From Armatimonadota bacterium (GTDB lineage Bacteria > Armatimonadota > Zipacnadia > Zipacnadales > UBA11051), in contig JABLXH010000002.1 in assembly GCA_013178155.1 (NCBI GenBank), positions 116,523 to 180,522 on the forward strand: a stretch of 64,000 bases of DNA. The letters run 5' to 3'. Of the stretch, positions 18,058-40,181 are shown piece by piece; position 1 is the stretch's first letter, and every line of letters starts with the position of its first letter. Made by a program: the position numbers and the translations under genes. The notes under the pieces are model-generated. The model searched no databases, was not told where the DNA came from, and saw nothing but the letters and a program-made list of their open reading frames with translations.

Positions 18058-21000
18058 ATGGACGACTTCGCCCAGCAGTTCCTGGACCCGCCCCGGCAGT
18101 ACCGCCCGGTGCCCTTCTGGTTCCTCAACCATCGCCTGGAAGAGGACCGTCTCCGCTGGCAGATCCGGGAGATGGCGACGAAGGGCGTCGGCGGTGTGGT
18201 GTTGCACGCGCGCCACGGACTGCAGACGCCGTACATGTCAGATGAGTGGATGCGGGCCATCGAGATCTGCGTCGAGGAGTTGGGGCGTCATGGGATGGAG
18301 GCCTGGCTGTACGACGAGGACAACTGGCCCTCGGGCACCTACGGCGGCAAGTTGACCCGGGAGAACCCGCAGTTCCGCATGCGCTACCTGCGGGTTCAGT
18401 CCCTGCGGGTCGCGGGTGGGGTTACGTTCCAGACGACGCTGCAGCCTGACGACAACACGTTGCTTTGCATTCAGGCCGTGCGCATTGCCGACGAGGGGAG
18501 CCTAGCGTTCCAGGGCGATGTGCGGGACATCACCGAGCGTTACCAGGACGGACGGCTGCGCTGGGAAGCCCCACCGGGAAGCTGGCTTGTGGCGCTGTTT
18601 TGGGAATGTCCGGTGGCCGCGAAGGTGACCTTCGCCAACGGCTATTACCTCGACACCATGAACGAGGAGGCCGTCGAGGCCTTTCGCCGACTGGCCTACG
18701 ATCCCTACGACCGGCTGTCCGCCGAGTTCGGCCAGACCATCAAGGGCGTCTTCACCGATGAGCCAGGTCTGATGATCCATGACGGGTTCTTCAAGACCCA
18801 GGCCATGCGCACGACGGTTCAGGACCTGCAGCGTGTCTTGCCGGGGGTGGTGCTGGCCTGGACCCGCGACTTCGAGACCAAGTTCCGGGCCATGCATGGC
18901 TATGACCTGCGCCCCCATCTGCTGGGGCTGGTCTATGATGTGGGACCCGACACGGGCAAGCTGCGGGCCGACTATTTCCGCGCCATCGGCACGTGGTATG
19001 TCGAGAGCTATCACGGCAAGCTCAGCCTCTGGTGCCATGAGCGAGGTCTGGAGTACATCGGGCACACGCTGGAGGAGCCGCTGTTCAAGCAGGTCCGCAC
19101 GCAGGGGAACCAGACATGGGTGCTGACCACCATGGACCGGCCCGGGCTTGACTACCTCGGGCACGGCGTGGGTACCAGGGACAACCCGTTCCGCATCCTG
19201 TCGGGCAAGTGCGCGGCTTCAGTGGCCCACACCCAGGGCAAACCACGGGTGATGTGCGAGGCCTTTGGCGGCAGCGGCCATGGTCATACCCTGCTGGACC
19301 GGCGCCTGGACGCCAACTTCATGGCCGCCCTCGGCGTGAACATGTTCATCCCCCATGCCTTCTACTACTCCTTCGAGGGCTTCCGCAAAACGGACTGGCC
19401 GCCAACCGAGTTCTACCATCAGCCATACTGGGAGTTCTACAAGGAGTTCGCCGACTACCTGGGCCGGCTTTCGCTGGTGCAGTCCCTGGGGCACCACGTG
19501 TCAGTGGCCGCGGTCCTCAGCCCCAACAAGACCATGTACGCTGACATGTTCCGGCAGGGGCAGGCCAACGAGACACCCGAGTGTCAGCAACTCATGGAAC
19601 AGGTGTCGGAAGCCCTGCTGTCGCTGCATTACGACTACGACTTCATTGACGACACACAACTGCCATTGGCAGAGGTGCGGGACGGAGAGCTGGCGTTCCC
19701 GGGCTCTGAAGAGACTTACATGGTGGTGGTGCTGCCAGGAGCGCGGGTCATGAGCCTGGCGGCCGCAACTCGACTGCGGGAGTTCCACGAAGCGGGAGGA
19801 AGCATCATCGCGCTGGGGGAGCTGCCATCCGAAGCTGATGAGCGGGGGCAGGACGAGGCCTTGCGCAGCATCATCGCCGGTATCTTCACCGAACGTGACG
19901 GACAGGCCAGCACCAACCCCGCCGGCGGGCATGCCCTGCACAGCCGGCCCAAGCGGGTCCAGGAGTGGCTGGAACGGCATCTGCCGGAAGTCGCCGCCGC
20001 GGACGTCACCATCCGTAATGCCGAGGGCCGCAACCTGGACAGCATCATCTGCTGCCATCGGTCCAGTGCCGTGGGCGAGAGCTATCTCCTGGTCAACCGC
20101 ACCAAGGAACCGCAGTCGTGTGTGTTTGCCTGCCCTGTGCAGGGGCGCGTCCAGGAGTGGTCCCTGGAGACCGGCGAGAGCGCGCCGGTCGTCACGCGCG
20201 TGAATGACGAAGATTGGTTGGAGGTGGAGCTGGAGTTTGAGGAAGCGGAGGCGCGGTTACTCATCATCACCCCGGGCGCCATGCCGGAGGAGATCGCCGA
20301 ACTGCCGACGCCGACCGTTCTGGACAACCTGCCATTGCAGCCGACGTGGGGCTTTGAGGCCGTAGGCGGCAACGTGGCGATCCTCGACCGGTGGGAGTTC
20401 ACCGCGCGGGACATCGAGGCCGGCAACGCGCTCCATGTGCCGGAGAAGGTCAACACGTACCGCACGGTCTTTCAGACCGCCGGGCGACTGGATGATGTCC
20501 GGCTCGTCTTGGATGACATCGAGCAGTGGATTCCGTCGCACGTGGGCTTTCTCAGCGGCATCAGAAGCCTCGAGGTGTTCGTCAACGGTCAGCAGGTGCC
20601 GCCGCTGGAGCCCTCGCGCTGGCAGGACCCTGACTACCTGTGGGTGCAGATCGGGCCGTATCTGGAGCCGGGGTCGAATCTCATCGAGATTGCCACCATA
20701 TCTCTGTTGAACCCGATGCACGGTCTGCGTGAGCCGGTCTACCTGGTTGGCGCTTTCGCGGTGGACGAGGCGGGCGTCCTCGCGCCGGAGCGGGGGAAGA
20801 TGCGGGGGTTGCACACTGACCACGGCTACGCCCACTTCGCCGGCATCGCGCGGTACCGGCAGACAGTGGACATCCCGGCGCGACTGCTGGGTGACACGCG
20901 GGTAGTGCTGGACCCCGGTGAGGTCCTGGGCTGTCTACGCGTGATTGTCAACGGGAAGGTGGTCGGCACCCGTATCTGGCCACCTTACGAGGTGGACATC

Positions 21001-21129
21001 ACCTCGGCTGCCCGCGCCGGCAGCAACGAGATCGTGCTGGAAGTGGCGGGGACTGTCGGCAACCTGTACAGCAAGGAAACGGTGCCCACTGGTATCTGCG
21101 GCCAGGCGGTCATCTGGGTGCTCGGCTAA
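18058..21129 (+). CDS. Large intracellular glycoside-hydrolase-like protein (GH106-like N-terminus; GH2-type sugar-binding-like C-terminal domain)
   Basis: N-terminal PRQYRPVPFWFLN...KGVGGVVLHARHGL signature seen in big rhamnosidase-like proteins. No signal peptide. 1023 aa. Confidence 0.55.
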   Translation: MDDFAQQFLDPPRQYRPVPFWFLNHRLEEDRLRWQIREMATKGVGGVVLHARHGLQTPYMSDEWMRAIEICVEELGRHGMEAWLYDEDNWPSGTYGGKLTRENPQFRMRYLRVQSLRVAGGVTFQTTLQPDDNTLLCIQAVRIADEGSLAFQGDVRDITERYQDGRLRWEAPPGSWLVALFWECPVAAKVTFANGYYLDTMNEEAVEAFRRLAYDPYDRLSAEFGQTIKGVFTDEPGLMIHDGFFKTQAMRTTVQDLQRVLPGVVLAWTRDFETKFRAMHGYDLRPHLLGLVYDVGPDTGKLRADYFRAIGTWYVESYHGKLSLWCHERGLEYIGHTLEEPLFKQVRTQGNQTWVLTTMDRPGLDYLGHGVGTRDNPFRILSGKCAASVAHTQGKPRVMCEAFGGSGHGHTLLDRRLDANFMAALGVNMFIPHAFYYSFEGFRKTDWPPTEFYHQPYWEFYKEFADYLGRLSLVQSLGHHVSVAAVLSPNKTMYADMFRQGQANETPECQQLMEQVSEALLSLHYDYDFIDDTQLPLAEVRDGELAFPGSEETYMVVVLPGARVMSLAAATRLREFHEAGGSIIALGELPSEADERGQDEALRSIIAGIFTERDGQASTNPAGGHALHSRPKRVQEWLERHLPEVAAADVTIRNAEGRNLDSIICCHRSSAVGESYLLVNRTKEPQSCVFACPVQGRVQEWSLETGESAPVVTRVNDEDWLEVELEFEEAEARLLIITPGAMPEEIAELPTPTVLDNLPLQPTWGFEAVGGNVAILDRWEFTARDIEAGNALHVPEKVNTYRTVFQTAGRLDDVRLVLDDIEQWIPSHVGFLSGIRSLEVFVNGQQVPPLEPSRWQDPDYLWVQIGPYLEPGSNLIEIATISLLNPMHGLREPVYLVGAFAVDEAGVLAPERGKMRGLHTDHGYAHFAGIARYRQTVDIPARLLGDTRVVLDPGEVLGCLRVIVNGKVVGTRIWPPYEVDITSAARAGSNEIVLEVAGTVGNLYSKETVPTGICGQAVIWVLG

Positions 21130-22647: not shown

Positions 22648-23694
22648 TTACTCGTGCACAGTAAGGGGTGTCCCCACAGGGATGTTGTTGTACAACTCGA
22701 TGGCGTCATGGTTGTACATGCGCATACATCCCCCGGAAATGCGCCGGCCAATGGAGGACGGCTGGTTGGTGCCATGGATGCCAATCACCCGGCCGGTGGT
22801 TCGCCCCCGGGCGGTGGTGCCCAACCAGCGGGCGCCCAGGGGGTTACGGCTGCTGCCGCCGGGCATATACTCGCCCCAATAGGCGTTCCACGGAGGCCAG
22901 ACCGCCTTGTTGGCGATGTGGAACTGGCCCACTGGTGTGTTGTTCCCTTCGCCCGTGCAGATCGGGTAACGCTTGACCGGCTGGCCGAGGAAGTACACCT
23001 GCAGCCAGCGCCCCGAGCGGCTCGCTTCCAGGCTGTACATGCGCTCCCGGACGATCACGTACGCAGTCGTGCCAGACGCGACGAGACGATACAGGCCCTG
23101 GTGCTGTTGGTCCAGCAGCTCGACCTGAATGCCGAAAAGCGGCCCGAGGGCCTTGACAGGGAGCTTGAGTTGGCCATACTCAGACAGCGGCGCCGCCTGC
23201 AGAGGCACCTCCCGGTAGTTGCGCCGGGCGTCTGACCCGTCCAGGGCGAAGGTGATGAGGGCATCGGGCAACACCACGGCGGCTCGCTGCTGTCCCGCCG
23301 ACCAGTGCAGTTCTCCTCCCATAAGGCGCAGCAGCGGACCGAACGCAACATATGAGACATTGCCTCTGACCGAGGCCATCACAAAGGGCTGGTAACGCTC
23401 CAGGACGCGCCTCACGCGCCGACCCAGGTCGCCGCCATCGCCCACTTCGGCCAGGTTCGGCGGCGGCGTGGTGGTGGGGCCACGGTTGGCTGCGGTACCC
23501 CTGGCCACCGGGACGTAGGCCGTCGGCCGCAGGGGGGCAACAGCGGCTCGGGAGCCAGGTGTGGCGGCTGCGGCCAGCGACCGCAGGAGCATCAGGTCAG
23601 AGAACTGCAGAGTCAGGTAGCCAAGACCAGCGACAAAGACAACGAAGAGCAAGCGTGGCCACAGGGACGAGGTGGGCGGCGAGCTTGGCTTCAT
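22648..23694 (-). CDS. L,D-transpeptidase (YkuD domain) with N-terminal membrane anchor
   Basis: C-terminal IGIHGTNQPSSIGRRISGGCMRM catalytic His/Cys motif. The 616-aa ORF was trimmed to the Met (MKPSSPP...) at 23694. Confidence 0.8.
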   Translation of the reverse strand: MKPSSPPTSSLWPRLLFVVFVAGLGYLTLQFSDLMLLRSLAAAATPGSRAAVAPLRPTAYVPVARGTAANRGPTTTPPPNLAEVGDGGDLGRRVRRVLERYQPFVMASVRGNVSYVAFGPLLRLMGGELHWSAGQQRAAVVLPDALITFALDGSDARRNYREVPLQAAPLSEYGQLKLPVKALGPLFGIQVELLDQQHQGLYRLVASGTTAYVIVRERMYSLEASRSGRWLQVYFLGQPVKRYPICTGEGNNTPVGQFHIANKAVWPPWNAYWGEYMPGGSSRNPLGARWLGTTARGRTTGRVIGIHGTNQPSSIGRRISGGCMRMYNHDAIELYNNIPVGTPLTVHE

Positions 23695-23835
23695 CGTGGG
23701 CTGTCCACTATGCTGGAGAAGGTTAGGTCGCCTCGGGGGGCGAACGCCACTTGGCAGTGCAGTCCAAGCAAATGTACCAGAAGCCGCCGTTTTGCGCAAG
23801 TTGCCCCAGTCACAGTCGGAGGTAAGGAACACCCA

Positions 23836-24657
23836 ATGGAGTTGTCTCTGCCCGTCGTCTGTATCACTGCTGATAACCTGGCTGCGGGATGGGAACAGGC
23901 GGTGGTGGCGTGCTGGGAACAGGGAGCCCGCATCCCAACCCAGTACGACCGGGAGGGTGATGAGCCCAGCCGGGATGTGTCTCTCTTCCTGGCTGTGAAG
24001 GACCCCTTCGCAGAGCCGCGCATCCACCGCGCCATGCCCGGAGGCTTTGACGATCTTGAGGTCTACCGGCAGGAGGTGGTGGATGGCATCCACGACCACT
24101 GGATCGCGCCTGAGGAGGGCAAGTGGCAGTACACCTACCACGAACGCATCACGGCCTACTCGGTGCCGGGTCTGCCCGAGCCGGTAAACCAGCTCGACGC
24201 CGTGGTAGAGGCGCTGGTGCAAGCGCCGCACACCCGCCGTGCGCAGTGTGTGCTGTGGAAGCCGTGGGTAGATCCCGCCTCTGATGACCCGGCGTGTATG
24301 CAACGGCTGTGGTTCCGCATCTTCGGCGACCGTCTCCTGCTGGCGGCTCACATGCGCAGCAATGACGCTTTCAAGGCCGCCTTCATGAACATGTACGCCT
24401 TCACCGACTTGCAGCGCGTTGTGGCCGAGAGGGTCAGCGAGGGGTTGGGCAGAGAGATCAAGGTGGGGCAGTACAACCACGTGGTGGACAGTTTCCATAT
24501 CTACGGCTCTTACTTTGCGGACTTCGAGGGGTTTCTGAGGACGCTGGAGACCCGAACCTTCGAGCAGCGGACCTACTGCACCGCAGAAGTCCAGGTGTTC
24601 ATTGACGAGGCGCGAGCCAAGGTGGCCGCGGCTCTGCAGAACGAGAAACGGACCTGA
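23836..24657 (+). CDS. Thymidylate synthase (ThyA)-fold protein, divergent
   Basis: GGAGGT RBS. PACMQRLWF (ThyA PCHxxFQF catalytic Cys region), HMRSNDAF (ThyA RSxD), DSFHIYGSY (ThyA DxHxY). N-terminal half lacks the DRTGTGT and ELLWF motifs. Confidence 0.6.
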   Translation: MELSLPVVCITADNLAAGWEQAVVACWEQGARIPTQYDREGDEPSRDVSLFLAVKDPFAEPRIHRAMPGGFDDLEVYRQEVVDGIHDHWIAPEEGKWQYTYHERITAYSVPGLPEPVNQLDAVVEALVQAPHTRRAQCVLWKPWVDPASDDPACMQRLWFRIFGDRLLLAAHMRSNDAFKAAFMNMYAFTDLQRVVAERVSEGLGREIKVGQYNHVVDSFHIYGSYFADFEGFLRTLETRTFEQRTYCTAEVQVFIDEARAKVAAALQNEKRT

Positions 24658-24683
24658 GTTTCACCACTGACCGAGGCCAGTTC

Positions 24684-25277
24684 ATGAAGCTTCATTTTGC
24701 GGTGGTAGCTCCGCTGTTAGCTGGCGTGTTGGCCTGTGTCCCTGCCTTCGGGGACGGTACCGAAGAGCAGCCTTGGGACCGCATCTCCGACGCGCTCTTG
24801 CCGCTGTCTTTGGCTGCGACGGGGTACGAGCTGCTGCAGGACGACCCCTACGGGCGCGAAACGGGTCGCCGCATGGCGGACACGATGATCATCACCACGG
24901 GAACGGTGTTGCTGACGAAGGACGTCGTGCATTCCCGGCGCCCCCGCCCGAGCACAGAGGTGGACGGTTTCCCGAGCGGTCACACCGCCTATGCCTTTGC
25001 TCTGGCGGAGGCCGTCGGGGCCCGCGAGCCCAAGGCCAGGCCCTGGCTGTACGTCTACGCGGCGGCCGTGGGGTGGTCGCGGGTCGAGCTGAATCGGCAT
25101 GACTGGGACCAGGTCATTGGCGGGGCAGTGCTGGGCTACCTGATCGGACACCAGACTGGGCGCGGGCGATGGCGACTGCTTGGCCACCGCGACGAACAGG
25201 CCACTTTGGCTGACCGTGGCCGGCTGAGCCTGGGGGCATCCTCCGGCTTCGGCGCACGGTATGACTTCAGTTTCTGA
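24684..25277 (+). CDS. PAP2 superfamily phosphatase (signal peptide)
   Basis: KDVVHSRRPRP, PSGHT and SRVELNRHDWDQV are the three PAP2 motifs. Confidence 0.75.
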   Translation: MKLHFAVVAPLLAGVLACVPAFGDGTEEQPWDRISDALLPLSLAATGYELLQDDPYGRETGRRMADTMIITTGTVLLTKDVVHSRRPRPSTEVDGFPSGHTAYAFALAEAVGAREPKARPWLYVYAAAVGWSRVELNRHDWDQVIGGAVLGYLIGHQTGRGRWRLLGHRDEQATLADRGRLSLGASSGFGARYDFSF

Positions 25278-25326
25278 AGTTCGGTGCCAGATCGCGGATT
25301 TGTGGTGTGCTGCGTCACACAAACCG

Positions 25327-25355
25327 TTGACAGCTTGCCAGGGGGTTGGTATACT
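25327..25355 (+). promoter_or_regulatory. Promoter TTGACA-N17-TATACT at the head of the guaA 5' leader
   Basis: Hexamers at 25327-25332 and 25350-25355. Followed by the CCACC-gagtt-GGTGG hairpin at 25357-25371 and about 250 nt of leader. Confidence 0.45.
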
Positions 25356-25611
25356 TCCACCGAGTTGGTGGACCCCACGGCCCCCGGCGCAGAGAGTGGT
25401 CGGTTCGAGTCTAGACACCGGGGCGTCTTTCTCAGAATTCCCTGACGCGCATGCAGACATGACTGAGGCGTAAGCCTCGTCGGCGCGCCTTTACGTTGAC
25501 CGACCCCACAGTGAGTTCACACCGTCCCCAGGGTTCAGATTCCGTAGCCCGCTCCGGGTCATCGACCCGGCACTCGGTGGTTGCCCTCCGGGTGGGCGTG
25601 CTACCTCATGG

Positions 25612-27165
25612 TTGGAGCCAATGACTGCTGCCGCCAGTCCCGAGACCGTGCTCGTCCTGGATTTCGGCGCCCAATACGTGCAGCTCATCGCGCGGAAGGT
25701 GCGCGAACAGCAGGTCTACTCGGAAATCGTTCCCCATGACACGCCCGTGTCGGAGCTTATGGCCCGGCAACCGAAGGGCCTGATCTTGTCGGGCGGTCCT
25801 GCCAGCGTCTACGAGGCAGGGGCGCCGACCGTCGATCCGGCGCTGTTCGCCTCCGGGCTACCGATCCTGGGCATCTGCTATGGGCAGCAACTGATGGCCC
25901 ACCTGACCGGAGGAACGGTCAGCCCGGGGACGGAGCGGGAGTATGGACACGCGGAGCTGGAGGTCCTGGAGCCAGAGCCGCTTTTCTCGGGGCTGGGCAG
26001 CCCCCTCAAGGTCTGGATGAGTCACGGCGACCGCGTGACGGCTGTGCCCCCAGGTTTTCGGGTACTGGCCCGTAGCGGAAACGCCCCGGTTGCGGCGATG
26101 GGAGATGCCAGTCGCAGGCTCTACGGGGTGCAGTTCCACCCGGAGGTCCATCACACACCGGACGGCAACGCGATCCTGAGGCATTTCCTTTACGATGTCT
26201 GTGGCTGCACCGGCGACTGGCAGCCCGGATCATTCATTGAGCAGTCGGTTCGCGAGCTGCAGGAACGCGTGGGGGACAAGCGCGTGCTGTGTGCGCTGTC
26301 CGGCGGGGTCGATTCCTCGGTTGTTGCTGCGCTCCTGCGCAGGGCGATCGGGCCCCAGCTCACCTGCATGTTCATTGACCATGGCCTGCTGCGTAAGCAT
26401 GAGGCCGAGCGCATCTGCGAGGTATTCGGGCGCATGCTTGGGGAGCAGTTCGTGTTCGTGGACGCCTCCGAGCGCTTCCTCAGTCGCCTGGACGGAGTGT
26501 TGGACCCCGAGGCGAAGCGGCGCATCATTGGGGAGAATTTCATCCGGGTCTTTGAGGAGGAGAGCGCCAAGCTGGGGCAGTTTGACTTCATCGCCCATGG
26601 CACCCTCTATCCGGATGTCATTGAGAGCGGCGGAGGCGCCACGGCCACCATCAAGACGCATCACAATGTGGGCGGCTTACCGGCTGATATGAAGTATGAG
26701 AATCTGGAACCTCTGCGCCGCCTCTTCAAGGATGAGGTGAGACAGCTAGGGGTCCAGTTGGGGCTGCCCGCGGAGATCGTGCAACGGCAGCCTTTCCCGG
26801 GCCCTGGACTGGCCGTAAGGGTTTCCGGAGCAGTAACGCCTGAGCGCTTGCACATAGCGCGGGAAGCTGACGCGATCCTGCAGGAGGAGTTGGAGGCGGC
26901 CGGGCTGACAGGGGCCATCGCGCAGTGCTTCGCCGTGCTGCTGGACACCCGCAGTGTGGGCGTGATGGGCGACGGCCGCACCTACTCACAGCCAGTGGTC
27001 CTGCGGGCGGTGACCACCGAGGACTTCATGACGGCCGACTGGTTCCGAATGCCCCACGACGTGCTGGCGCGCATCGCGACCCGCATCGTCAATGAGGTGC
27101 CCGGTGTCAACCGGGTGCTTTACGACGTCACCACCAAACCGCCGGGAACCATCGAATGGGAATGA
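25612..27165 (+). CDS. guaA: GMP synthase (glutamine-hydrolysing)
   Basis: GATase-1 (GICYGQQLM ... HPEV), ATP-PPase SGGVDSSV motif and the C-terminal dimerisation domain ending ...IEWE. Confidence 0.95.
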
Positions 27166-27764
27166 CTGACGGGGTTGACTGGCTGGCTGACCTGGACCGC
27201 GTGCTGCTGCCCGAGTCCGTCCTGCGGCAACGGGTCCGGGAACTGGCGCAGGCCATCGCCGCGGACTATGCGGGCAAGGACCTGCTGGTGCTGGGTGTGC
27301 TGACCGGTTCTTTCGTCTTTGTGGCCGATCTGGTGCGAGCTCTGGATCTGCCCCTTGAGGTTGGTTTCATCAGTGCTTCCAGCTACGGCAAACAGTCTGC
27401 CAGCAACGGCCAGGTGACCGTGCTGGAGGGCCTCTGGCCGGAGCTCAGTGGACGCGACGTGCTCCTGGTTGAGGATATCGTGGACAGTGGGCACACGCTG
27501 GCGCACCTGCGGCAGGAGTTGGCGCGGCGAGGCCCGAGGTCAGTCGCCGTATGCTGTCTCCTGGACAAGACGGAGCGCCGCGAGGTGCCGGTGACGGTTG
27601 AGTACCTGGGCTTCTCCGTCCCCAATGAGTTTCTGGTTGGTTACGGGTTGGACTATGCCGGCCGTTTCCGCCATCTGCCCTATGTGGCAGCCCTGAAGGC
27701 CGAGGCCTATCAGGGCAAGGACGAGCAATCTTCTGAGGTGCTGGATGATGTTGGAGCTGAGTGA
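27156..27764 (+). CDS. hpt: Hypoxanthine-guanine phosphoribosyltransferase
   Basis: [18 protein letters not shown]-binding motif. Overlaps guaA by 10 nt. Has about 20 extra C-terminal residues overlapping the rho start. Confidence 0.85.
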
Positions 27765-33377: not shown

Positions 33378-35375
33378 GTGGCAGAAGCTGAAGCCAGCAT
33401 CGATACCACCCACGAACAGGTAGTGTTGGGAGGCGGAGAGCGTCTGTCAGCTGCTACCGTCATTGTGGCGGTGGGTTTCCTGGGCCTGTCTCTGTTTTGG
33501 ATGCTGCAGGCAGGGATCATCTCGCACGGGGTACAGTTGGGCGAGAGCGTGCCGGTGGTGCCGGCGGTTGGGGCGCTGTTAGTCTTGACAGTGCTGGGCC
33601 TTACGCTCCGGCGGCTGGGCTGGCGCTGGCGCGTGCCACCGGGCCAGGTCCTTTACATCTACTGCTTCCTGTGCGTGGCGGTGACCATGAACTCGGTGGG
33701 CGTGGCGCGGATGCTGTTTCCTGAAGCCACGGCGGTCTACTATTTCGCCACGCCCGAGAACGACTTCGAGACACTGCAGAAGTACATGCCCACCTGGTTG
33801 GCCCCGCAGGATCCCAAGGTCATCCAGGAGATGTACGAGGGCGCTGCCGACGAGAAGGTGCCGTGGAAGCCCTGGCTGCGGCCCCTCTTCTTTTGGACCC
33901 TGTTTCTGGGCGGTCTGTTCGTGTCCATGCAGGGGATGACGGCACTCTTCCGACGGCAATGGGCGGACAAGGAGCGCCTGACCTTCCCTATCGTGCAGCT
34001 CGTCCTGGACATCGCCGACCAGGAGGGGCGACGGGTAGTGGGGGGCTTCTTTGGCAACCCGCTCATGTGGGTTGGGTTTGGCATAGCGGCTCTGTACAAC
34101 GTTGGTAACATCCTGAACGCCTGGAATCCGGCCGTGCCGGCCATGGGTCGGGAGTACGCTATCGGGCGGTTCTTCACCGAACGGCCGCTTTCGGCGATCA
34201 ACCCGCTCAGCATCGCCTGGCGACCCGAGAACATTGGACTGGGCTACCTGGTGCCGACGGAGATCACGCTGTCGGTGTGGGTGTTCTACCTGGCCCTGCG
34301 CATCTCCAACGTTATCGCGACGGCGGGCGGATACGAGATTGCCGGTTTCCCGTTTGATCGGGAGCAATCGGCGGGATCGTACCTGGTGTTGGCGCTCTTT
34401 CTGATCTGGGTGGCGCGGGACCATCTCAAGGCCGCCTTCGCAACCGCCTTCACCGCGCATCGGCCGCTTGATGACCGCGGCGAGCCCATGTCGTATCGAA
34501 TGGCCTTCCTGGCGACCTTCGGAGGGCTGGCGCTCATGCTGGCGATTGCCCTCAAGGCCGGGATGTGGCTGGGCACCGCACTCATCTACTTTGGTCTCGT
34601 GCTGCTCTTTGCGCTGGTGTACGCCAGGGCGCGGGCGGAAGCGGGCGCAGCCATGGTGTGGCTGTTTCCGTTCTACCTGCACAAACAGATGATGATCCAC
34701 GTGGCCGGGTCGGAGCCCTTCTCGCGGGGCGGTAACTGGAGCAACCTGACCATGCTCTCCACCTTCATGTTCATCTCCCGGGGCTTCTTCCAGTCCCTGA
34801 TGGCCTACCAGATGGAGAGCACCAAGATCGCGCAGGAGGCGCGGCTGCGACAGCGAACAATGGTCGTGTGGCTGCTGAGCGCGCTGGTGCTGGGGTTGTT
34901 GGGAGCCTATGTGACCCACTTGCACGCCTACTACACCCACGGGGCGAACATCCTGGAGGGGGGCAGCACCGAGGGTGGCTATCGGGTGATGCTGGCTCGC
35001 CAGGAGTTTGAGGAGCTCTCCAGCTTCCTGAAGGCCCAGCGCCCACCAGACCTGGCGCGCACGTGGGCGGGCCTCTTTGGCGCGGTCTTCACCCTGGGGC
35101 TGATACTGGTGCGCACGTACTCGCTGCGCTTTCCGCTTCACCCGCTGGGTTTCGCCATGGTTACCTCTTACGGCGGACCGCTGTGGGGGCCGTTCCTGCT
35201 GGTGTGGATCGTCAAGACCGTGGTGTTGCGGATCGGCGGGATGCGCGCCTACCGACGTGGCATTCCGTTTTTCCTGGGGATCGTGATGGGCCACTTCTTC
35301 GTGGCTGGTCTCATCTGGGGCTGGTTGAGTATCATCAATGAGATGTACCGTCGCTACGTCGTGCATTTCGGCTAG
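33378..35375 (+). CDS. Large polytopic membrane protein, unknown family (paralog A; about 13-14 TM)
   Basis: Shares WADKERLTFPIVQL, PTEITLSVWVFYL and PLHPLGFAMVTSY motifs with the 54230-56218 protein. Start uncertain. Confidence 0.6.
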   Translation: MAEAEASIDTTHEQVVLGGGERLSAATVIVAVGFLGLSLFWMLQAGIISHGVQLGESVPVVPAVGALLVLTVLGLTLRRLGWRWRVPPGQVLYIYCFLCVAVTMNSVGVARMLFPEATAVYYFATPENDFETLQKYMPTWLAPQDPKVIQEMYEGAADEKVPWKPWLRPLFFWTLFLGGLFVSMQGMTALFRRQWADKERLTFPIVQLVLDIADQEGRRVVGGFFGNPLMWVGFGIAALYNVGNILNAWNPAVPAMGREYAIGRFFTERPLSAINPLSIAWRPENIGLGYLVPTEITLSVWVFYLALRISNVIATAGGYEIAGFPFDREQSAGSYLVLALFLIWVARDHLKAAFATAFTAHRPLDDRGEPMSYRMAFLATFGGLALMLAIALKAGMWLGTALIYFGLVLLFALVYARARAEAGAAMVWLFPFYLHKQMMIHVAGSEPFSRGGNWSNLTMLSTFMFISRGFFQSLMAYQMESTKIAQEARLRQRTMVVWLLSALVLGLLGAYVTHLHAYYTHGANILEGGSTEGGYRVMLARQEFEELSSFLKAQRPPDLARTWAGLFGAVFTLGLILVRTYSLRFPLHPLGFAMVTSYGGPLWGPFLLVWIVKTVVLRIGGMRAYRRGIPFFLGIVMGHFFVAGLIWGWLSIINEMYRRYVVHFG

Positions 35376-35450: not shown

Positions 35451-38400
35451 ATGGCTGCACGCAACTGCTGGAAGTCAACCCTGGGGTGGAGCATGGCCTG
35501 TCTGGCGTTGGTCGGGGCCTTAGCCAGCCTGGCGCCGGCGGCGATGGATTATGAGGCCCTGGCCTCGCAGATTGATATGGGGCGCCTCGTGCGGGACCTG
35601 CGGGCCATGGAGGCCCTTGGATCGCGTGTAGTTGGATACCCGGGCAATGCACGCGCCGCTGCGATGATCCAGGAGGAGTTCGAGCGCCTCGGTCTGGAGA
35701 CGATGGTCCAGGAGTACGATCTGCCGTCGCCCGTGGATTACGGCAGCAAGCTGCGGTTGGGTGATCGCGAATACGATCTGTCGGCCCTCTGGCCCAACCA
35801 TGTCCGAACGTGCCAGGTCCCGGCCGCGGGTCTCACCGGCCCCGTCATTTACGTCGGCGCCGGTTCGCTGGCCGACTTTAACGGTAAGGACACGGCCGGG
35901 GCCATCGTACTGATGGACTTTAACACCCAACAGAACTGGCTGAACGTGCCCCTGCTGGACGCCGCAGCGGTGATCTTCGTTGAGCCCCTGAGCATGACCC
36001 GCGGCGAGGCGGAGATGAAGTTCGTCCGGGCGCCCATCAATGTCCCCCGGTTCTATCTCCGGGGCACCGATGCAGCGGAGGTGCTCGCCAAGGTGGCGGA
36101 GCAGCCCGTCACCGGCACCATCAGCGCCGACGAACCACTCCGCTGGCGCAGCACCGTCAACCGCAACATCATCGGTATTCTCCCTGGCAAGGGGGGAACG
36201 CTGAGGGAAGAGCCCATCGTCCTGCAGGCTTACTATGACTCGGTCTCGGTAGTGCCCAGGCTGGCGCCCGGAGCGGAGAACGCCACGGGTATCTGTGCGT
36301 TGTTGGAGCTGGCGCGGCTGCTCACTCGCCCGGAGTATCGGCCGCAGCGCACGGTCATCTTCCTGGCCACCAGTGGGCACTTCCAGGCGCTCGCCGGTAC
36401 GCGGGAGTTTCAGGCGCTTTGGGGACGGGAGCCCCGCAAGGAGCGCAATCGCCTGGACCAGCTCAGGAAGCTCGAAGAGGAGCTGGACGAGCTCAACAAG
36501 CTCAAGGAGAAGCTCACCAGGGACCTTGCCAAGCTCAGCGAGGCGCGGGCCCAGATCACCTCGGAGACGACGTTCTTTAAGAATGTCGTTAACGTTGGGC
36601 AACTGGAGTTGTCACCCGAGGTCGCGGAGCTTCGTCTGGCCCGCCTGGATCGGGACATCAAGCGCAAGCAAGACTATATCGCTATCTGGAAGAAGCTGGA
36701 CTCGCTGGGCAAGATCCAACTGTTCATCGGCCTGGACCTGAGCACCCGCAGCGGCGCTCTGGGCCCCTTCCAGTCGGGCTGGTACTACAACCAGTCCCAT
36801 CTGCTGCGGTTCTACTCGCCTCTGGGCAAGCAATTCGCCCAGTACGCTTCGGCGGCCGCCGAGGCCCTCGGGTACAACACGGCGGATGTGTTCGTAGATG
36901 GGATCAACCCGGTCAAGGGCCGCGAGTGGCACACCTTCTTCCCGGGCAAGGTGGCCTTTGACCACGAGATGATCATCAGGGGAGGGCGGCCGGGCATTGT
37001 TCTGGCTACCGTCAACGACGGGCGACCCCTGGTGGATACGCCGCTGGACACCGTAAGCAATCTCGACCTGGCCAATCTGGAGACCCAGGTGCGGATGCTG
37101 GCGTGTATGCTGACCAGCTTCCTGAGCGATGAGACGCTGGGAGACAAGGCGCTCAAGCGCATCCGGGCGCTGAAGAAGATGGACGACCTCAAGGACATCC
37201 TGGGCACCGTGCTGGAGTTCCGTCGCCGCGACAGCTTTGTGCCTAACACCCCGGTTCCCGGCTCGCTGGTGGTCATTCAGGGCAGCTATCGGATGATGAT
37301 GGGTGTGCACACCGAAGTGCTGGCCATGGCCAATGAGACCAGTGAGTTCCTGATGCGGGGCGAAGTCGGTGGGGGCAGTATCCTGGAGGCCTACAACTTT
37401 GACAATGGTACCGGGGACGTCATCTATGCCCCGGATATGGGTCCGGACGGCGACAAGAAGTACCCACGGACGGTCCAGGGGCGGGCCGGACTGAAGCGCC
37501 CCATCATCGTCTTCAACTGCGTCCCCACTGACATCTTCGACCTCGTGGATGAGCGGTATTTCCAGACCCTGCAGAAGGTCTTCATCTACGACGCCAAAGA
37601 CTACTCGGAGCCGATCTCCTTCGGCTACAGTCTGTCTTCCATGGGAGCGTCGGCCTCGGAGTTTCCATCGTTCGTCGAGCCAGTGGGGACGATCTTCTCG
37701 ATGCCCGAGGTGGATGTCCAGGTCACCATGTCCATGGGCCTGCTGGGTGTGCGCCTGGTGCTCATCAACTCAACCGATGACCGCCCCACGGGCGTGGGCT
37801 TCCCGGCGCGGACGACACGTCGGATCGCTCTCACCCCACTTCAGGTCGGGAAGGACATGTGGCAACTGGACGAGTTCCGCATGGCCAGACTGCGGGCACG
37901 GGGCATCCAGAACGCCCGGCTGGAGCGACTGCATACCGCTGCCGCAGAATCACTTAAGGTCGCGCAGGAGGAGTTGAAGGCCCGACGCTATGACCTGGGG
38001 GTCTCGGCGGCCCGCCACGCGTGGGGCTATGAGTCCCGGGCCTACCCGGATGTGCAGAAAACGGCGATTGACGTGGTGAAGGGTGTGCTGTTCTATCTGG
38101 CGATGCTGTTGCCCTTCGCCTACTTTGGCGAGCGCCTGCTGATCGCCTCGCGCACCATCGTCGGCACCATCCTGGGCACGCTGGGTGTCTTCCTGGTGGT
38201 GTTCTTCGGGTTGGCGATGGTGCACCCGGCCTTCACTCTCACCGCCAACCCCCCCATCATCCTGCTGGCATTCATCATCATGGCCTTGGCGGTGATGGTC
38301 ATCGCGATCGTCACCATGAAGTTCAACCAGGAGCTCAAGTCCATGAAGCAGGCGCGGGGTGGGGTGCACGAGGCGGATGTGGGACGGCTGTCCGCCGCTT

Positions 38401-40181
38401 CTGCGGCGTTCAGCCTGGGCATCGCCAACATGCGGCGGCGCAAGCTGCGCACCGCGCTGACGGCGACGACGCTGGTGCTTCTCACCTTCACGGTGCTGAG
38501 TTTCACCTCGGTCCGAGAGAGCCTGCGTACCAACGAGATACGCTTGCCCCACAAGCCTGGTTATCAGGGTGTCATGTTGCGCGACCGCGCCTGGCTGTCG
38601 CTGGAGGAGCCTACGGCCTACATTCTGAAGAACGAGTTGCACAAGGTCGGGACTGTCGCCACCCGGTCGTGGTACACCTCCGGCCAGATCGACAAGGAGG
38701 CGATGATAGACGTCACCAGCGCCGCTGACACCAGTAAGAAATACGTGGTGAGCTGCATCCTGGGGCTGACGCCGCAGGAAGAGGACGTGATGGACATCAA
38801 CCGGGCAGTGATGGCTGGGCGCTGGATCAAGCCGGGTGACAAGGATGTCTGCCTGCTGCCAGCCACGGTGGCCTCTGGCCTGGGTATCAGTGAGCAGCAG
38901 CTTGGGTCCGCGGAGGTCCTGGTCTTCGGTACGCGGTTCCGTGTCATCGGCATCGTCAGCGAGAATGCCATGCGCAAGATGCGGGACCTGGACGGCGAAC
39001 CAATGATGCCTGTGAACTACGCCCTGCTTCGGCCGGAGGTGCTCAAGGAGCTCCAGCGCCAGGCCGAGCAGCGGTCGCAGTTGGGACAGACCAATGCCCA
39101 GTCCTTGCTGCAGGAGTACAAGCATTTCGGCCCGGAGAAACTCATCATCCTGCCCTATGAGCAGACGCTGCAGTTGGGTGGTACATTGCGCTCGATCGCG
39201 GTCCGCTACGAGGACCCCGAGAAAGTGCTGCCCGACGTGCGACAGATGATGAACCGCTTTGCCCTCAGCCTCTATGCCGGATACAAGGACCAGACCCTGC
39301 TGTTCAGCTCCGTGGGGGTGACGTCCTTCTCTGGCCTGGAGGCGCTGGTCATCCCGATCCTCATCGCTGCCCTGATCGTGCTGAACACGATGCTGGGAGC
39401 GGTGCATGAGCGCGTGCGAGAGATCGGCATCTACAGTTCGCTTGGCCTGGCTCCGGTCCACGTCTCCATGCTCTTCCTGGCTGAGGCCTCGGTCTTTGCC
39501 AACCTCGGCGCCATCGTGGGCTACCTGCTGGGCCAGATCGTAACGAAGGTACTCTACGCCACCGGCAGCATGCATGGCATTGAGCTCAACTACAGCTCGA
39601 TGTCGGCGGTATCGGTGACGATCGTGGTTATTCTGGTGGTGTTGTTGTCCACGCTGTACCCATCCAAGAAGGCGGGGGAGATCGCCTCTCCGGGCATCGA
39701 GCGCAAGTGGTCGCTGCCGGAACCCGAGGGCGACCTGATGACGGTGGTGCTGCCCTTCACGGTGACCGGTCGCGATGCGTGGGGCGTGTCGGCGTTCCTG
39801 AAGGAGTTCTTCGACGAGTATGTGGGCTACGCGGGCGGGGAGTTCCTGGCCGAGGACGTCAAGCTGGAGCCGGTGGACTGCGAGCGCGGCAAGGGCATGC
39901 AGGTGTCGCTGCGCATGTGGCTGGCGCCCTACGACCTGGGCGTGAGCCAGGCGTTCCGCCTGACTTGTGAACCCACCGAGGACGGCGATATCTTCGCCAT
40001 CGTGATCCGTCTGGACCGCCTCGCCGGCGACATCACGTCCTGGAAGAAGACCAACACCCTCTTCCTGGCGGGCATTCGCAAGCAGTTCCTGATCTGGCGC
40101 ACGGTGCCGCAGGCTGAGAAGGTCGCCTACGCCGACCGAGCCGAGAAGATCCTGGCGGGTGAGGAGATCGAGGTGGCTTGA
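35451..40181 (+). CDS. Giant fusion protein: signal/anchor + PA-domain + M28-peptidase-like domain (degenerate metal/catalytic residues, coiled-coil insertion) + about 330-aa unknown domain + 3 TM + MacB/FtsX-type permease domain + about 160-aa C-terminal cytoplasmic domain
   Basis: AGGAGAG RBS. M28 N-terminal LRAMEALGSRVVGYPGN, PA-like DFNGKDTAGAIVLMDF, NRNIIGILPGKG...LQAYYDSV...GAENATG. Coiled coil RKLEEELDELNKLKEKL. FtsX TM1 ANMRRRKLRTALTATTLVLL and REIGIYSSLGLAPVHVSMLFLAEA. Confidence 0.75.
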   Translation: MAARNCWKSTLGWSMACLALVGALASLAPAAMDYEALASQIDMGRLVRDLRAMEALGSRVVGYPGNARAAAMIQEEFERLGLETMVQEYDLPSPVDYGSKLRLGDREYDLSALWPNHVRTCQVPAAGLTGPVIYVGAGSLADFNGKDTAGAIVLMDFNTQQNWLNVPLLDAAAVIFVEPLSMTRGEAEMKFVRAPINVPRFYLRGTDAAEVLAKVAEQPVTGTISADEPLRWRSTVNRNIIGILPGKGGTLREEPIVLQAYYDSVSVVPRLAPGAENATGICALLELARLLTRPEYRPQRTVIFLATSGHFQALAGTREFQALWGREPRKERNRLDQLRKLEEELDELNKLKEKLTRDLAKLSEARAQITSETTFFKNVVNVGQLELSPEVAELRLARLDRDIKRKQDYIAIWKKLDSLGKIQLFIGLDLSTRSGALGPFQSGWYYNQSHLLRFYSPLGKQFAQYASAAAEALGYNTADVFVDGINPVKGREWHTFFPGKVAFDHEMIIRGGRPGIVLATVNDGRPLVDTPLDTVSNLDLANLETQVRMLACMLTSFLSDETLGDKALKRIRALKKMDDLKDILGTVLEFRRRDSFVPNTPVPGSLVVIQGSYRMMMGVHTEVLAMANETSEFLMRGEVGGGSILEAYNFDNGTGDVIYAPDMGPDGDKKYPRTVQGRAGLKRPIIVFNCVPTDIFDLVDERYFQTLQKVFIYDAKDYSEPISFGYSLSSMGASASEFPSFVEPVGTIFSMPEVDVQVTMSMGLLGVRLVLINSTDDRPTGVGFPARTTRRIALTPLQVGKDMWQLDEFRMARLRARGIQNARLERLHTAAAESLKVAQEELKARRYDLGVSAARHAWGYESRAYPDVQKTAIDVVKGVLFYLAMLLPFAYFGERLLIASRTIVGTILGTLGVFLVVFFGLAMVHPAFTLTANPPIILLAFIIMALAVMVIAIVTMKFNQELKSMKQARGGVHEADVGRLSAASAAFSLGIANMRRRKLRTALTATTLVLLTFTVLSFTSVRESLRTNEIRLPHKPGYQGVMLRDRAWLSLEEPTAYILKNELHKVGTVATRSWYTSGQIDKEAMIDVTSAADTSKKYVVSCILGLTPQEEDVMDINRAVMAGRWIKPGDKDVCLLPATVASGLGISEQQLGSAEVLVFGTRFRVIGIVSENAMRKMRDLDGEPMMPVNYALLRPEVLKELQRQAEQRSQLGQTNAQSLLQEYKHFGPEKLIILPYEQTLQLGGTLRSIAVRYEDPEKVLPDVRQMMNRFALSLYAGYKDQTLLFSSVGVTSFSGLEALVIPILIAALIVLNTMLGAVHERVREIGIYSSLGLAPVHVSMLFLAEASVFANLGAIVGYLLGQIVTKVLYATGSMHGIELNYSSMSAVSVTIVVILVVLLSTLYPSKKAGEIASPGIERKWSLPEPEGDLMTVVLPFTVTGRDAWGVSAFLKEFFDEYVGYAGGEFLAEDVKLEPVDCERGKGMQVSLRMWLAPYDLGVSQAFRLTCEPTEDGDIFAIVIRLDRLAGDITSWKKTNTLFLAGIRKQFLIWRTVPQAEKVAYADRAEKILAGEEIEVA

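What the first reader, a model, noticed from the sequence alone, without database searches (positions are those of the whole stretch)
23836..24657. Divergent thymidylate-synthase-fold protein lacking the canonical N-terminal ThyA motifs
The C-terminal half has the ThyA catalytic constellation: PACMQRLWF (catalytic Cys), HMRSNDAF (Arg-Ser...Asp) and DSFHIYGSY (His/Tyr). The first about 110 residues show none of the ThyA DRTGTGT and ELLWF folate/dUMP-binding motifs. Such ThyA-like proteins include dCMP/dUMP hydroxymethylases and nucleotide-modifying enzymes of nucleoside-antibiotic or hypermodified-base pathways. Alternatively this is the bona fide but deeply divergent ThyA of an under-sampled lineage. 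It is divergently transcribed from an LDT-AcpS-LptFG operon and followed by a PAP2 phosphatase, which gives no pathway context.
Basis: partly seen in the sequence, partly recalled or inferred. Interest (0 to 1): 0.5.

Follow-up and report, generated by a model that had tools for sequence, protein, structure and literature searches.

The report
Archaeal-like thymidylate synthase, housekeeping gene
This gene most likely encodes the cell's ordinary thymidylate synthase (the enzyme that makes the DNA building block dTMP), in a divergent "archaeal-like" version that is common in Armatimonadota and several uncultured bacterial phyla, is already labelled thymidylate synthase in databases, and has never been tested biochemically.

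Summary
The ORF at 23836-24657 (+), 273 aa, is real. It has a coding GC3 signature and a GGAGG ribosome-binding site. Thousands of homologues exist, and 120 of them are 65-97% identical.

The dUMP-binding and catalytic residues are kept: Cys154, Arg174, Ser175, Asp177, Asn185, His221, Tyr223, Tyr101 and Arg134/135. Asn185 predicts uracil, not cytosine.

Residues that line the folate site in canonical ThyA differ: W80→His, L143→Asp, L172→Lys, F176→Met, and the C-terminus is helical.

Three lines of context point to housekeeping dTMP synthesis:
- Thymidylate kinase lies immediately downstream in four Patescibacteria species.
- The order thyA–PAP2–guaA–hpt–rho is conserved in Armatimonadota.
- Relatives carry inteins at the catalytic Cys.

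A dUMP-hydroxymethylase or unusual-cofactor reading is not excluded, because the L143-position Asp also occurs in phage SP-10 dUMP hydroxymethylase. I could not test whether the same genomes also carry thyX or a canonical thyA.

Verdict: an ordinary gene and a new member of a known kind. Interest is low to moderate.

The parts
23836..24657 (+). thyA-like CDS, 273 aa plus stop. Thymidylate-synthase fold, archaeal-like clade.
23818..23829 (+). Purine-rich Shine-Dalgarno-like sequence GGAGGTAAGGAA, upstream of the ATG at 23836.
   Evidence: Sequence read. Supports the 23836 start over the ATG at 23710.
23695..23835 (.). 141-bp divergent intergenic region between the probable L,D-transpeptidase start (about 23694, minus strand) and thyA.
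   Evidence: No Rfam match. No sigma-70 consensus site found here.
24088..24102 (+). IHDHW (residues 85-89), the equivalent of E. coli I79-W80-D81-E82-W83. The W80 position is His86.
   Evidence: HMMER and hhalign alignments. His86 is invariant in the 120 close homologues.
24130..24147 (+). YTYHER (residues 99-104). Tyr101 is the equivalent of E. coli Tyr94. Arg104 is near-universal in the family.
   Evidence: Tyr101 is conserved in 346 of 346 sequences.
24232..24246 (+). TRRAQ (residues 133-137). Arg134/Arg135 are the equivalents of E. coli Arg126/Arg127, the phosphate-binding pair donated across the dimer.
24283..24315 (+). DDPACMQRLWF (residues 150-160). Catalytic Cys154 (codon 24295-24297) is the equivalent of Cys146. 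Asp151 occupies the L143 position.
   Evidence: Inteins in relatives are inserted exactly before this Cys.
24355..24390 (+). RSNDAFKAAFMN (residues 174-185). Arg174, Ser175 and Asp177 are the equivalents of Arg166, Ser167 and Asp169. Asn185 is the equivalent of Asn177 (uracil specificity). Lys180 and Met184 replace L172 and F176.
   Evidence: Meaning of the diagnostic residues from PMC13326640.
24487..24513 (+). DSFHIYGSY (residues 218-226). His221 and Tyr223 are the equivalents of His207 and Tyr209 (deoxyribose 3'-OH contacts in ThyA).
24505..24654 (+). C-terminal helical extension (residues 224-273). It replaces the beta-strand and C-terminal tail of canonical ThyA and lies beyond the end of the TIGR03283 model.
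   Evidence: DSSP of the AF2 model shows helices 224-239, 242-245 and 249-272. The TIGR03283 match ends at residue 225.
24684..25277 (+). PAP2-family phosphatase gene, 26 nt downstream of thyA and probably co-transcribed. This is context; a functional link is not shown.
   Evidence: PF01569. Found downstream of thyA in 22 related loci, within 300 nt in 15 of them. No terminator-like site between the two genes.
25612..27764 (+). guaA (25612-27165) and hpt (27156-27764), purine-nucleotide genes in conserved synteny with thyA.
   Evidence: Pfam. guaA in 18 and hpt in 30 of 81 related loci. A sigma-70-like promoter lies at 25327-25355.

Best explanation
The gene encodes the organism's housekeeping thymidylate synthase. 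The organism is a 65% G+C Armatimonadota bacterium. The enzyme belongs to a large archaeal-like branch of the ThyA superfamily.

Proposed mechanism, inferred from conserved residues and not shown experimentally:
1. A homodimer binds dUMP through Arg174, Ser175, Arg134'/Arg135' and a fourth basic residue that I could not identify. Candidates are Arg46, Arg62/65 and Arg104.
2. Asn185 reads the uracil face. His221 and Tyr223 hold the deoxyribose.
3. Cys154 attacks C6 of dUMP.
4. A methylene unit from a reduced pterin is transferred to C5. The pterin is presumably 5,10-methylene-tetrahydrofolate, held in part by Asp177.
5. Tyr101 assists removal of the C5 proton.
6. Hydride transfer then gives dTMP, which thymidylate kinase takes on.

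The pocket for the second substrate is built differently from canonical ThyA: His86 for W80, Asp151 for L143, Lys180 for L172, Met184 for F176, and a helical C-terminus. How the cofactor is bound and shielded from water is therefore unknown.
For: Fold and family:
- PF00303 above its gathering score.
- Best NCBIfam model is methanogen-type thymidylate synthase TIGR03283, covering residues 9-225.

Active site:
- hhalign against E. coli ThyA (sequence verified identical to PDB 1aob) maps Cys154, Arg174, Ser175, Asp177, Asn185, His221, Tyr223, Tyr101 and Arg134/135 onto the catalytic and dUMP-binding residues.
- These positions are nearly universal in 346 family members.
- Asn at the N177 position indicates dUMP. 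Asp at the D169 position argues against the flavin hydroxylases. Both rules come from PMC13326640.

Context:
- tmk (PF02223) overlaps or abuts the 3' end of the homologue in four Patescibacteria species.
- thyA–PAP2–guaA–hpt–rho synteny recurs in Armatimonadota.
- The pattern scan found the family in 321 GTDB species. The best 80 hits are almost all Armatimonadota plus Patescibacteria. Named relatives also occur in Omnitrophica, Ratteibacteria, Planctomycetota and a Methanomethylicia archaeon.

Constraint:
- 84 invariant columns among 40 sequences that are 65-82% identical to the window protein.
- 80% identity to a copy in a 47% G+C Berkelbacteria contig.
- Inteins with LAGLIDADG endonucleases sit exactly at the catalytic Cys and near Tyr101 in relatives. 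From general knowledge, this pattern is typical of essential replication and nucleotide-metabolism enzymes.

Folate cycle:
- Patescibacteria commonly retain glyA, folD and folA, the folate cycle that serves thymidylate synthesis (PMC11974145).
Against: - No member of this clade has been assayed or solved. The best PDB sequence matches are E about 1e-11 to 1e-13 over part of the protein.
- It fails both curated thymidylate-synthase equivalog cut-offs: TIGR03283 109.7 against 174.55, and TIGR03284 26.3 against 108.35. None of the ten representatives scanned reaches the TIGR03283 cut-off either.
- The L143 position, held to exclude water in methyl-forming enzymes (PMC13326640), is Asp here and polar in most of the family. 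SP-10 dUMP hydroxymethylase has the same Asp-x-Pro-Cys plus Asn177 pattern.
- The protein scores equally to the dUMP-hydroxymethylase PHROG (72.7 bits) and the canonical ThyA PHROG (71.3 bits).
- Equivalents of Arg21 and Glu58 could not be assigned.
- Even for methanogen ThyA the cofactor is undetermined (PMC9012536).
- Whether these genomes lack thyX and canonical thyA was not testable.
Confidence: 0.72

Rival explanations
1. It is a dUMP C5-hydroxymethylase. Cys154 and the methylene donor form the exocyclic methylene intermediate as in ThyA. Water, positioned by the Asp151/His86 pair, then attacks instead of hydride. The product is 5-hydroxymethyl-dUMP for a modified base or another metabolite.
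For: - Asp (or His/Glu) at the L143 position together with Asn at the N177 position is the pattern expected for dUMP hydroxymethylases under the rule quoted in PMC13326640. It is present in the annotated phage SP-10 dUMP hydroxymethylase.
- The W80 position is His.
- There is no canonical C-terminal lid.
- The PHROG for SP-10-type hydroxymethylases scores as well as the ThyA PHROG.
- MilA is the best PDB sequence match.
Against: - The gene is a single-copy, vertically conserved chromosomal gene across free-living Armatimonadota and several other phyla. It is not in phage or hypermodification clusters.
- Its neighbours are tmk, guaA and hpt. No glycosyltransferase or other modification genes were seen among the neighbours examined.
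- The L143 position is not conserved as an acid: D, H, E, S, Y, A and N all occur. A Methanomethylicia archaeal member has Ala there.
- From general knowledge, no cellular organism is known to make hydroxymethyl-dUMP as a DNA precursor.
Confidence: 0.1
2. It does make dTMP, but with a non-canonical second substrate or redox partner. This could be a different pterin C1 carrier, or a reductant other than the folate itself. Under this reading it is functionally a third variety of thymidylate synthase chemistry on the ThyA fold.
For: - The folate-lining residues of canonical ThyA are systematically replaced by invariant polar or charged residues: His86, Asp151, Lys180, Met184 and Arg161.
- The C-terminus is different.
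- The nearest model is the methanogen type, whose cofactor is unresolved and may be tetrahydromethanopterin in some lineages (PMC9012536; PMC9931769).
Against: - Asp177 (the D169 position, a folate contact) is universal in the family. The Asn that marks the flavin enzymes is absent.
- From general knowledge, Armatimonadota and Patescibacteria are not known to use methanopterin.
- Patescibacteria commonly retain folA, glyA and folD, which fits an ordinary folate cycle.
- No candidate partner gene is consistently adjacent.
Confidence: 0.13
3. It is a cytosine-nucleotide enzyme (dCMP/CMP hydroxymethylase of the MilA or T4 gp42 type, or a flavin dCMP 5-hydroxylase) or a natural-product tailoring enzyme.
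For: MilA and phage HY126 AfhB (9iqc/9iqu) are the top sequence or structure matches in the PDB.
Against: - The N177 position is Asn, not Asp, in the window protein, in all 120 close homologues and in 220 of 226 distant ones.
- The D169 position is Asp, not Asn. Both diagnostic rules come from PMC13326640.
- The PDB matches are only 19-25% identical and no better than canonical ThyA in Foldseek E-value.
- There is no biosynthetic cluster around the gene.
Confidence: 0.02

Closest known systems
Methanogen/archaeal-type thymidylate synthase (NCBIfam TIGR03283, thy_syn_methano). From memory, M. jannaschii MJ0757 is the founding member.
   Same: - It is the best-scoring curated model: 109.7 bits, residues 9-225 against model positions 2-196 of 201. 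The N-terminal half, which canonical ThyA models cannot see, is therefore homologous.
- It shares the compact core lacking the canonical ThyA insertions.
- A Methanomethylicia archaeal protein is 38% identical over residues 5-241.
   Different: - The score is well below the equivalog cut-off of 174.55.
- None of ten clade representatives scanned passes it; the maximum is 141.8 bits.
- The window protein has about 20 extra internal residues and a 48-residue helical C-terminal extension.
- The carriers are bacteria that presumably use folate.
Canonical ThyA (E. coli ThyA; Pfam PF00303; NCBIfam TIGR03284)
   Same: - Residues 76-228 align with E. coli 70-214 (hhalign probability 91.8%).
- Cys146, Arg166, Ser167, Asp169, Asn177, His207, Tyr209, Tyr94, Arg126/127 and Trp83 are conserved.
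   Different: - Only 21% identity over the aligned core. The first 75 residues cannot be aligned.
- W80→His, L143→Asp, H147→Met, Q165→Met, L172→Lys and F176→Met.
- There is no C-terminal lid.
- TIGR03284 scores 26.3 bits against a cut-off of 108.35.
MilA, CMP 5-hydroxymethylase of mildiomycin biosynthesis (PDB 5jnh/5b6d)
   Same: - It is the best PDB sequence hit (E 3.7e-11 for the single sequence, 3e-13 for the profile).
- It shares Asp at the L143 position (D-V-A-C) and a basic residue at the L172 position (alignment).
   Different: MilA has Asp at the N177 position (cytosine specific), visible in the alignment and stated in PMC13326640. The window protein has Asn. MilA sits in an antibiotic cluster, whereas this gene is a conserved chromosomal gene.
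Phage flavin-dependent dCMP 5-hydroxylases (HY126 AfhB, PDB 9iqc/9iqu; RB69 gp48, DLP3 gp80)
   Different: Only 19% identity. These enzymes carry D169N and N177D (PMC13326640). The window protein has Asp177 and Asn185 at those positions.
SPO1/SP-10-type phage dUMP hydroxymethylase (phrog_5131)
   Same: - Asn at the N177 position, Asp at the D169 position and Asp at the L143 position.
- 34% identity over residues 101-230.
- phrog_5131 is nominally the best PHROG, at 72.7 bits.
   Different: - The PHROG score is tied with canonical ThyA phrog_160 (71.3 bits).
- The SP-10 protein is 382 aa with a long, different C-terminal domain.
- The N-terminal halves do not resemble each other.
- One is a phage hypermodification gene; the other is a conserved cellular gene.

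Membership tests
ThyA superfamily (Pfam PF00303 Thymidylat_synt) | Profile match above the Pfam gathering score | tested here: met
   41.4 bits against a cut-off of 24.3, residues 85-231.
ThyA superfamily (Pfam PF00303 Thymidylat_synt) | Thymidylate-synthase alpha/beta fold | tested here: met
   [not shown]
ThyA superfamily (Pfam PF00303 Thymidylat_synt) | Catalytic nucleophile Cys (E. coli C146) | tested here: met
   Cys154 aligns with C146. Conserved in 345 of 346 family sequences.
Canonical thymidylate synthase ThyA (EC 2.1.1.45; NCBIfam TIGR03284) | Equivalog model score above the curated cut-off | tested here: not met
   26.3 bits against 108.35. The PRK01827 sub-models score 19-40 bits against cut-offs of 325-405.
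Canonical thymidylate synthase ThyA (EC 2.1.1.45; NCBIfam TIGR03284) | dUMP-binding residues R166, S167, R126', R127', N177, H207, Y209 and general base Y94 | tested here: met
   Arg174, Ser175, Arg134, Arg135, Asn185, His221, Tyr223 and Tyr101 by hhalign. All are near-universal in the family.
Canonical thymidylate synthase ThyA (EC 2.1.1.45; NCBIfam TIGR03284) | N-terminal motifs carrying R21 (DRTGTGT) and E58 (ELLWF) | tested here: inconclusive
   The motifs are absent as strings, and residues 1-75 do not align with E. coli ThyA. Candidate equivalents (Arg46, Arg62/65 or Arg104; Glu75 or Glu80) are conserved but are only guessed. The tools do not return model coordinates.
Canonical thymidylate synthase ThyA (EC 2.1.1.45; NCBIfam TIGR03284) | Folate-pocket residues W80, L143, L172, F176 and the C-terminal lid that shield the intermediate and permit hydride transfer | tested here: not met
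   His86, Asp151, Lys180 and Met184 occupy these positions. The C-terminus is three helices instead of the canonical tail. Trp83 and Asp169 are kept (Trp89, Asp177).
Canonical thymidylate synthase ThyA (EC 2.1.1.45; NCBIfam TIGR03284) | Catalysis of dUMP + CH2-H4folate to dTMP + H2folate; the only thymidylate synthase in its genome | not testable with these tools
   Needs an assay or complementation, and whole-genome searches for thyX, thyA and folA. None of these genes lies in the 64-kb window or in the flanks of 87 related loci, which says little about whole genomes.
Methanogen-type thymidylate synthase (NCBIfam TIGR03283) | Equivalog model score above the curated cut-off | tested here: not met
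   109.7 bits against 174.55, although it is the best model and covers positions 2-196 of 201. Ten clade representatives score 104-142 bits.
dCMP/CMP hydroxymethylases (T4 gp42, MilA) | Asp at the E. coli N177 position (cytosine specificity) | tested here: not met
   Asn185. Asn in 340 of 346 family sequences. Rule from PMC13326640.
Flavin-dependent 5-hydroxy-dCMP synthases (RB69 gp48, HY126 AfhB) | Asn at the D169 position (D169N) plus N177D | tested here: not met
   Asp177 and Asn185. Rule from PMC13326640.
dUMP hydroxymethylases (SPO1 gp29 / SP-10 type, phrog_5131) | Asn at the N177 position together with a polar or acidic residue at the L143 position | tested here: met
   Asn185 and Asp151, the same as SP-10 (D-R-P-C, Asn). 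However, this position varies in the family (D/H/E/S/Y/A/N), so the rule may not transfer to this clade.
dUMP hydroxymethylases (SPO1 gp29 / SP-10 type, phrog_5131) | Specific profile membership, and a phage or hypermodification gene context | tested here: not met
   phrog_5131 scores 72.7 bits for the window protein against 430 bits for SP-10, and ties with phrog_160 at 71.3 bits. The context is chromosomal housekeeping genes.

The most novel reading that the evidence does not exclude
This archaeal-like ThyA clade does not run the textbook folate-ThyA reaction. It spans Armatimonadota, Patescibacteria, Omnitrophota, some Planctomycetota, some archaea and some large phages. Its remodelled second-substrate pocket (invariant His86, Lys180, Met184 and Arg161, polar residue 151, helical C-terminus) either binds a different C1 donor or reductant to make dTMP, or releases 5-hydroxymethyl-dUMP. 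Under this reading a whole set of bacterial phyla would make, or modify, their thymidylate by chemistry not yet described for cells.
Probability: 0.12. Interest if true: 0.7.

Novelty: new member of a known kind. Interest (0 to 1): 0.25.

Why it matters
As the housekeeping thymidylate synthase, this gene is routine. It only confirms an annotation that pipelines already give.

Its modest value is as a pointer. A very large, strongly conserved, archaeal-like ThyA clade supplies dTMP in several mostly uncultured bacterial phyla. It falls below both curated thymidylate-synthase equivalog cut-offs and has no solved structure and no assayed member. It also differs from canonical ThyA in exactly the residues that hold the folate and exclude water.

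One biochemical characterisation would do three things:
- Anchor the annotation of thousands of genes.
- Test whether the "L143 hydrophobic = methyl, polar = hydroxymethyl" rule used for phage enzymes holds outside the canonical clade.
- Bear on the unresolved cofactor question for archaeal ThyA.

Tried and rejected
- **Cytosine-specific and flavin enzymes.** MilA, T4 gp42 and AfhB types were rejected on the N177 and D169 positions.
- **Genome-level co-occurrence with thyX, canonical thyA or folA.** Only the window and the ±6-10 kb flanks of 87 loci could be searched, by tblastn with E. coli ThyA, E. coli FolA and T. maritima ThyX plus a ThyX motif. Nothing was found.
- **Named methanogen ThyA sequences.** I tried to obtain them to check the L143 and W80 positions. 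Searches seeded with P0178 and P0258 returned only bacterial candidate-phyla members and one Methanomethylicia cluster. The TIGR03283 consensus is not shown by the tools.
- **Profile discrimination between ThyA and dUMP hydroxymethylase.** The PHROG scores tie.
- **Gene context in viral contigs and other Patescibacteria loci.** Neighbours were mostly without Pfam hits or unrelated: RecA, HNH endonuclease, subtilase, ankyrin, YmdB. tblastn found no folA, tmk, dut or thyX.
- **RNA and other signals.** An Rfam gathering scan of the window, a permissive scan of 23500-25700 and ARAGORN found no riboswitch or RNA gene.
- **Literature.** No paper on this clade was found. Xu et al. 1999 on MJ0757 is not held, so that reference rests on memory.
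- **Longer ORF from ATG 23710.** Rejected.
Full report
**Observation.** The + strand ORF 23836-24657 translates to a 273-aa protein with the three reported motifs: PACMQRLWF, HMRSNDAF and DSFHIYGSY. The mechanical ORF list shows a longer frame from ATG 23710 (315 aa) and a 616-aa antisense ORF. Homologues are 270-290 aa and start at the same Met. A GGAGGTAAGGAA element lies at 23818-23829. The codon-position G+C is typical of coding sequence only from 23836 onward: GC1/2/3 is 0.66/0.41/0.80, against 0.57/0.60/0.57 for 23710-23835. The antisense ORF is an artefact of high G+C. The divergent L,D-transpeptidase gene probably starts near 23694, which leaves a 141-bp intergenic region. GMP synthase, a phosphoribosyltransferase of the Hpt type and Rho follow on the plus strand.

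No solved structure is closer than about 25% identity.

**How big and where.** The protein database holds 4957 hits with E ≤ 1e-3. The best 120 are 65-97% identical, 254-318 aa long (most 270-290), and, where named, are called thymidylate synthase. In the 50%-identity representative library there are 189 clusters at E ≤ 1e-30 and 564 at E ≤ 1e-10. A pattern scan of one genome per GTDB species found relatives in 321 species. The best 80 are almost all Armatimonadota (Armatimonadia, Zipacnadia, WS1, Fimbriimonadaceae, Thermosaccharophagus) plus Patescibacteria (Berkelbacteria, Saccharibacteria). More distant members are named from Omnitrophica, Ratteibacteria, Pacebacteria, Planctomycetota and a Methanomethylicia archaeon. 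Sixteen IMG/VR viral contigs, several of 100-340 kb, carry copies 37-68% identical (44% or more in all but one). No cultured phage has anything above 36%. None of ten representatives scanned reaches the TIGR03283 cut-off (104-142 bits). The window protein therefore belongs to a broad archaeal-like branch that is related to, but not inside, the curated methanogen family.

**Active-site anatomy.** hhalign of the family alignment against it aligns window residues 76-228 with E. coli 70-214 (probability 91.8%). The residue mapping is:

| Window protein | E. coli ThyA |
|---|---|
| Ile85-His86-Asp87-His88-Trp89 | I79-W80-D81-E82-W83 |
| Tyr101 | Y94 |
| Arg134/Arg135 | R126/R127 |
| Asp151-Pro-Ala-Cys154 | L143-A-P-C146 |
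| Arg174, Ser175, Asp177 | R166, S167, D169 |
| Lys180 | L172 |
| Met184 | F176 |
| Asn185 | N177 |
| His221, Tyr223 | H207, Y209 |

In a MAFFT alignment of 346 family members, several positions are essentially universal: Tyr101, Cys154, Arg174, Ser175, Asp177, Asn185, His221, Tyr223, Arg134/135, and also His64, Glu80 and Arg104. The L143 position is polar and variable (Asp 69% of the distant set, then His, Glu, Ser, Tyr, Ala and Asn), and the W80 position is His or Lys. Residues 1-75 do not align with canonical ThyA, so equivalents of Arg21 and Glu58 are only guesses. The region is nevertheless among the most conserved parts of the family (TQYD, SRD, PRIHR, LEVYRQEVV). The C-terminal 50 residues form helices rather than the canonical strand-and-tail lid.

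**Reading the specificity residues.** A 2026 study of phage ThyA homologues summarises the diagnostic positions (PMC13326640):
- N177: Asn means dUMP, Asp means dCMP/CMP.
- L143: hydrophobic means the methyl product; Asp or Glu is seen in hydroxymethylases.
- D169: Asn marks the flavin-dependent 5-hydroxy-dCMP synthases.

The window protein is Asn/Asp/Asp at the N177/D169/L143 positions. This rules out the cytosine enzymes (MilA, T4 gp42) and the flavin hydroxylases, even though they are the top PDB matches. It does not rule out a dUMP hydroxymethylase. The annotated phage SP-10 dUMP hydroxymethylase, fetched here, has the same D-x-P-C and Asn pattern. PHROG profiles do not separate the two possibilities either. 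The window protein scores 72.7 bits to phrog_5131, the SP-10 family, where SP-10 itself scores 430 bits. It scores 71.3 bits to phrog_160, where E. coli ThyA scores 427 bits.

**Context decides in favour of dTMP synthesis.**
- In four Patescibacteria species the homologue (61-77% identical) is followed at once by thymidylate kinase, overlapping or a few bases apart.
- Among 81 related loci, a PAP2 gene follows in 22 (within 300 nt in 15), guaA in 18, hpt in 30 and rho in 30. The window's arrangement is therefore an Armatimonadota-wide block of nucleotide genes. A sigma-70-like promoter at 25327-25355 suggests guaA is transcribed separately, while thyA and PAP2, 26 nt apart, may be co-transcribed.
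- Several relatives of 600-790 aa carry inteins (Intein_splicing/Hint plus LAGLIDADG domains). They are inserted exactly before the catalytic Cys (…HN|CLQR…) or near residues 98-108.
- Conservation is extreme. Eighty-four columns are invariant among 40 sequences. A copy in a 47% G+C Berkelbacteria contig is 80% identical, against 65% G+C for this window. This indicates strong constraint and probably inter-phylum transfer. A thyA transfer into Patescibacteria has been reported (PMC12455944).
- Patescibacteria commonly retain folA, glyA and folD (PMC11974145), the cycle a folate-dependent ThyA needs.

**Limits.** No clade member has been assayed. Even for methanogen ThyA the C1 carrier is unresolved (PMC9012536; PMC9931769). 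From memory, MJ0757 was identified as a thymidylate synthase in 1999 by secondary-structure alignment, but the paper could not be read here. The decisive test is whether carrier genomes lack thyX and canonical thyA and possess folA, and I could not run it. Only the window and the locus flanks were searchable, and they contain none of these genes. No riboswitch, tRNA or other RNA element lies near the gene.

**Verdict.** The gene is the archaeal-like housekeeping thymidylate synthase of an Armatimonadota bacterium (confidence about 0.7). It is already labelled as such in public annotation, so it is a new member of a known kind. A residual possibility of about 0.1-0.25 in total is that the clade's remodelled cofactor pocket reflects a different C1 donor or reductant, or a hydroxymethyl product. 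That would be interesting and is cheap to test by complementation and a product assay.

Noticed in passing
Related proteins P0121, P0127, P0134, P0158, P0177, P0200, P0241, P0246, P0252 and P0266 (not in the window): Family members of 600-790 aa carry inteins (Hint/Intein_splicing plus LAGLIDADG homing endonuclease). One insertion site is exactly before the catalytic Cys (…HN|CLQR…). A second is near the Tyr101 motif (query residues about 98-108).
   Followed up: partly
L008 (Berkelbacteria MAG contig JBAXWD010000007.1, 2232-3050) compared with window 23836-24657: The protein is 80% identical between a 47% G+C Patescibacteria contig and this 65% G+C Armatimonadota window. Patescibacterial copies in general are 60-80% identical. 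This suggests inter-phylum transfer of this thyA type, or unusually strong constraint.
   Followed up: partly
window 24684-25277 (+): A small PAP2-family phosphatase with an N-terminal hydrophobic, signal-like segment sits 26 nt after thyA. It recurs directly downstream of thyA in 15-22 related Armatimonadota loci. Its substrate, and any link to nucleotide metabolism, is unknown.
   Followed up: partly
window 33378-35375 (+) and 54110-56218 (+): Two paralogous proteins with the DUF6785+DUF6784 architecture (E about 1e-122 to 1e-125). Each lies next to a very large protein: 35451-40181 (1576 aa, M28 peptidase plus FtsX-like permease domains) and 50449-54138 (1229 aa, CBM9 domain).
   Followed up: no
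window 22648-24498 (-): This 616-aa ORF is misleading. Only about 22648-23694 is the YkuD L,D-transpeptidase gene (with a Cu_amine_oxidN1-like domain). The rest runs antisense through thyA and is a high-G+C artefact.
   Followed up: yes
window 25327-25355 (+): A near-consensus sigma-70-type promoter (TTGACA, 17-nt spacer, TATACT, with an extended -10 TG) lies in the 335-bp gap before guaA. It is the only such site in 23400-25800.
   Followed up: no
IMG/VR loci L088-L103: Large viral contigs (up to 341 kb) carry this archaeal-like thyA type (37-68% identical, 44% or more in all but one). Every one retains Asn at the N177 position and Asp at the D169 position. Three more distant viral hits (L104, L105, L107) have Asp at the N177 position, so they are probably dCMP-type enzymes of another clade.
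   Followed up: partly
window 5511-7250 (-), 18058-21129 (+), 47859-50582 (+): Several polysaccharide-degradation genes lie in the window: a GH123 hydrolase, a GH106 alpha-L-rhamnosidase-like protein and a right-handed beta-helix protein. They fit a saccharolytic Armatimonadota lifestyle.
   Followed up: no
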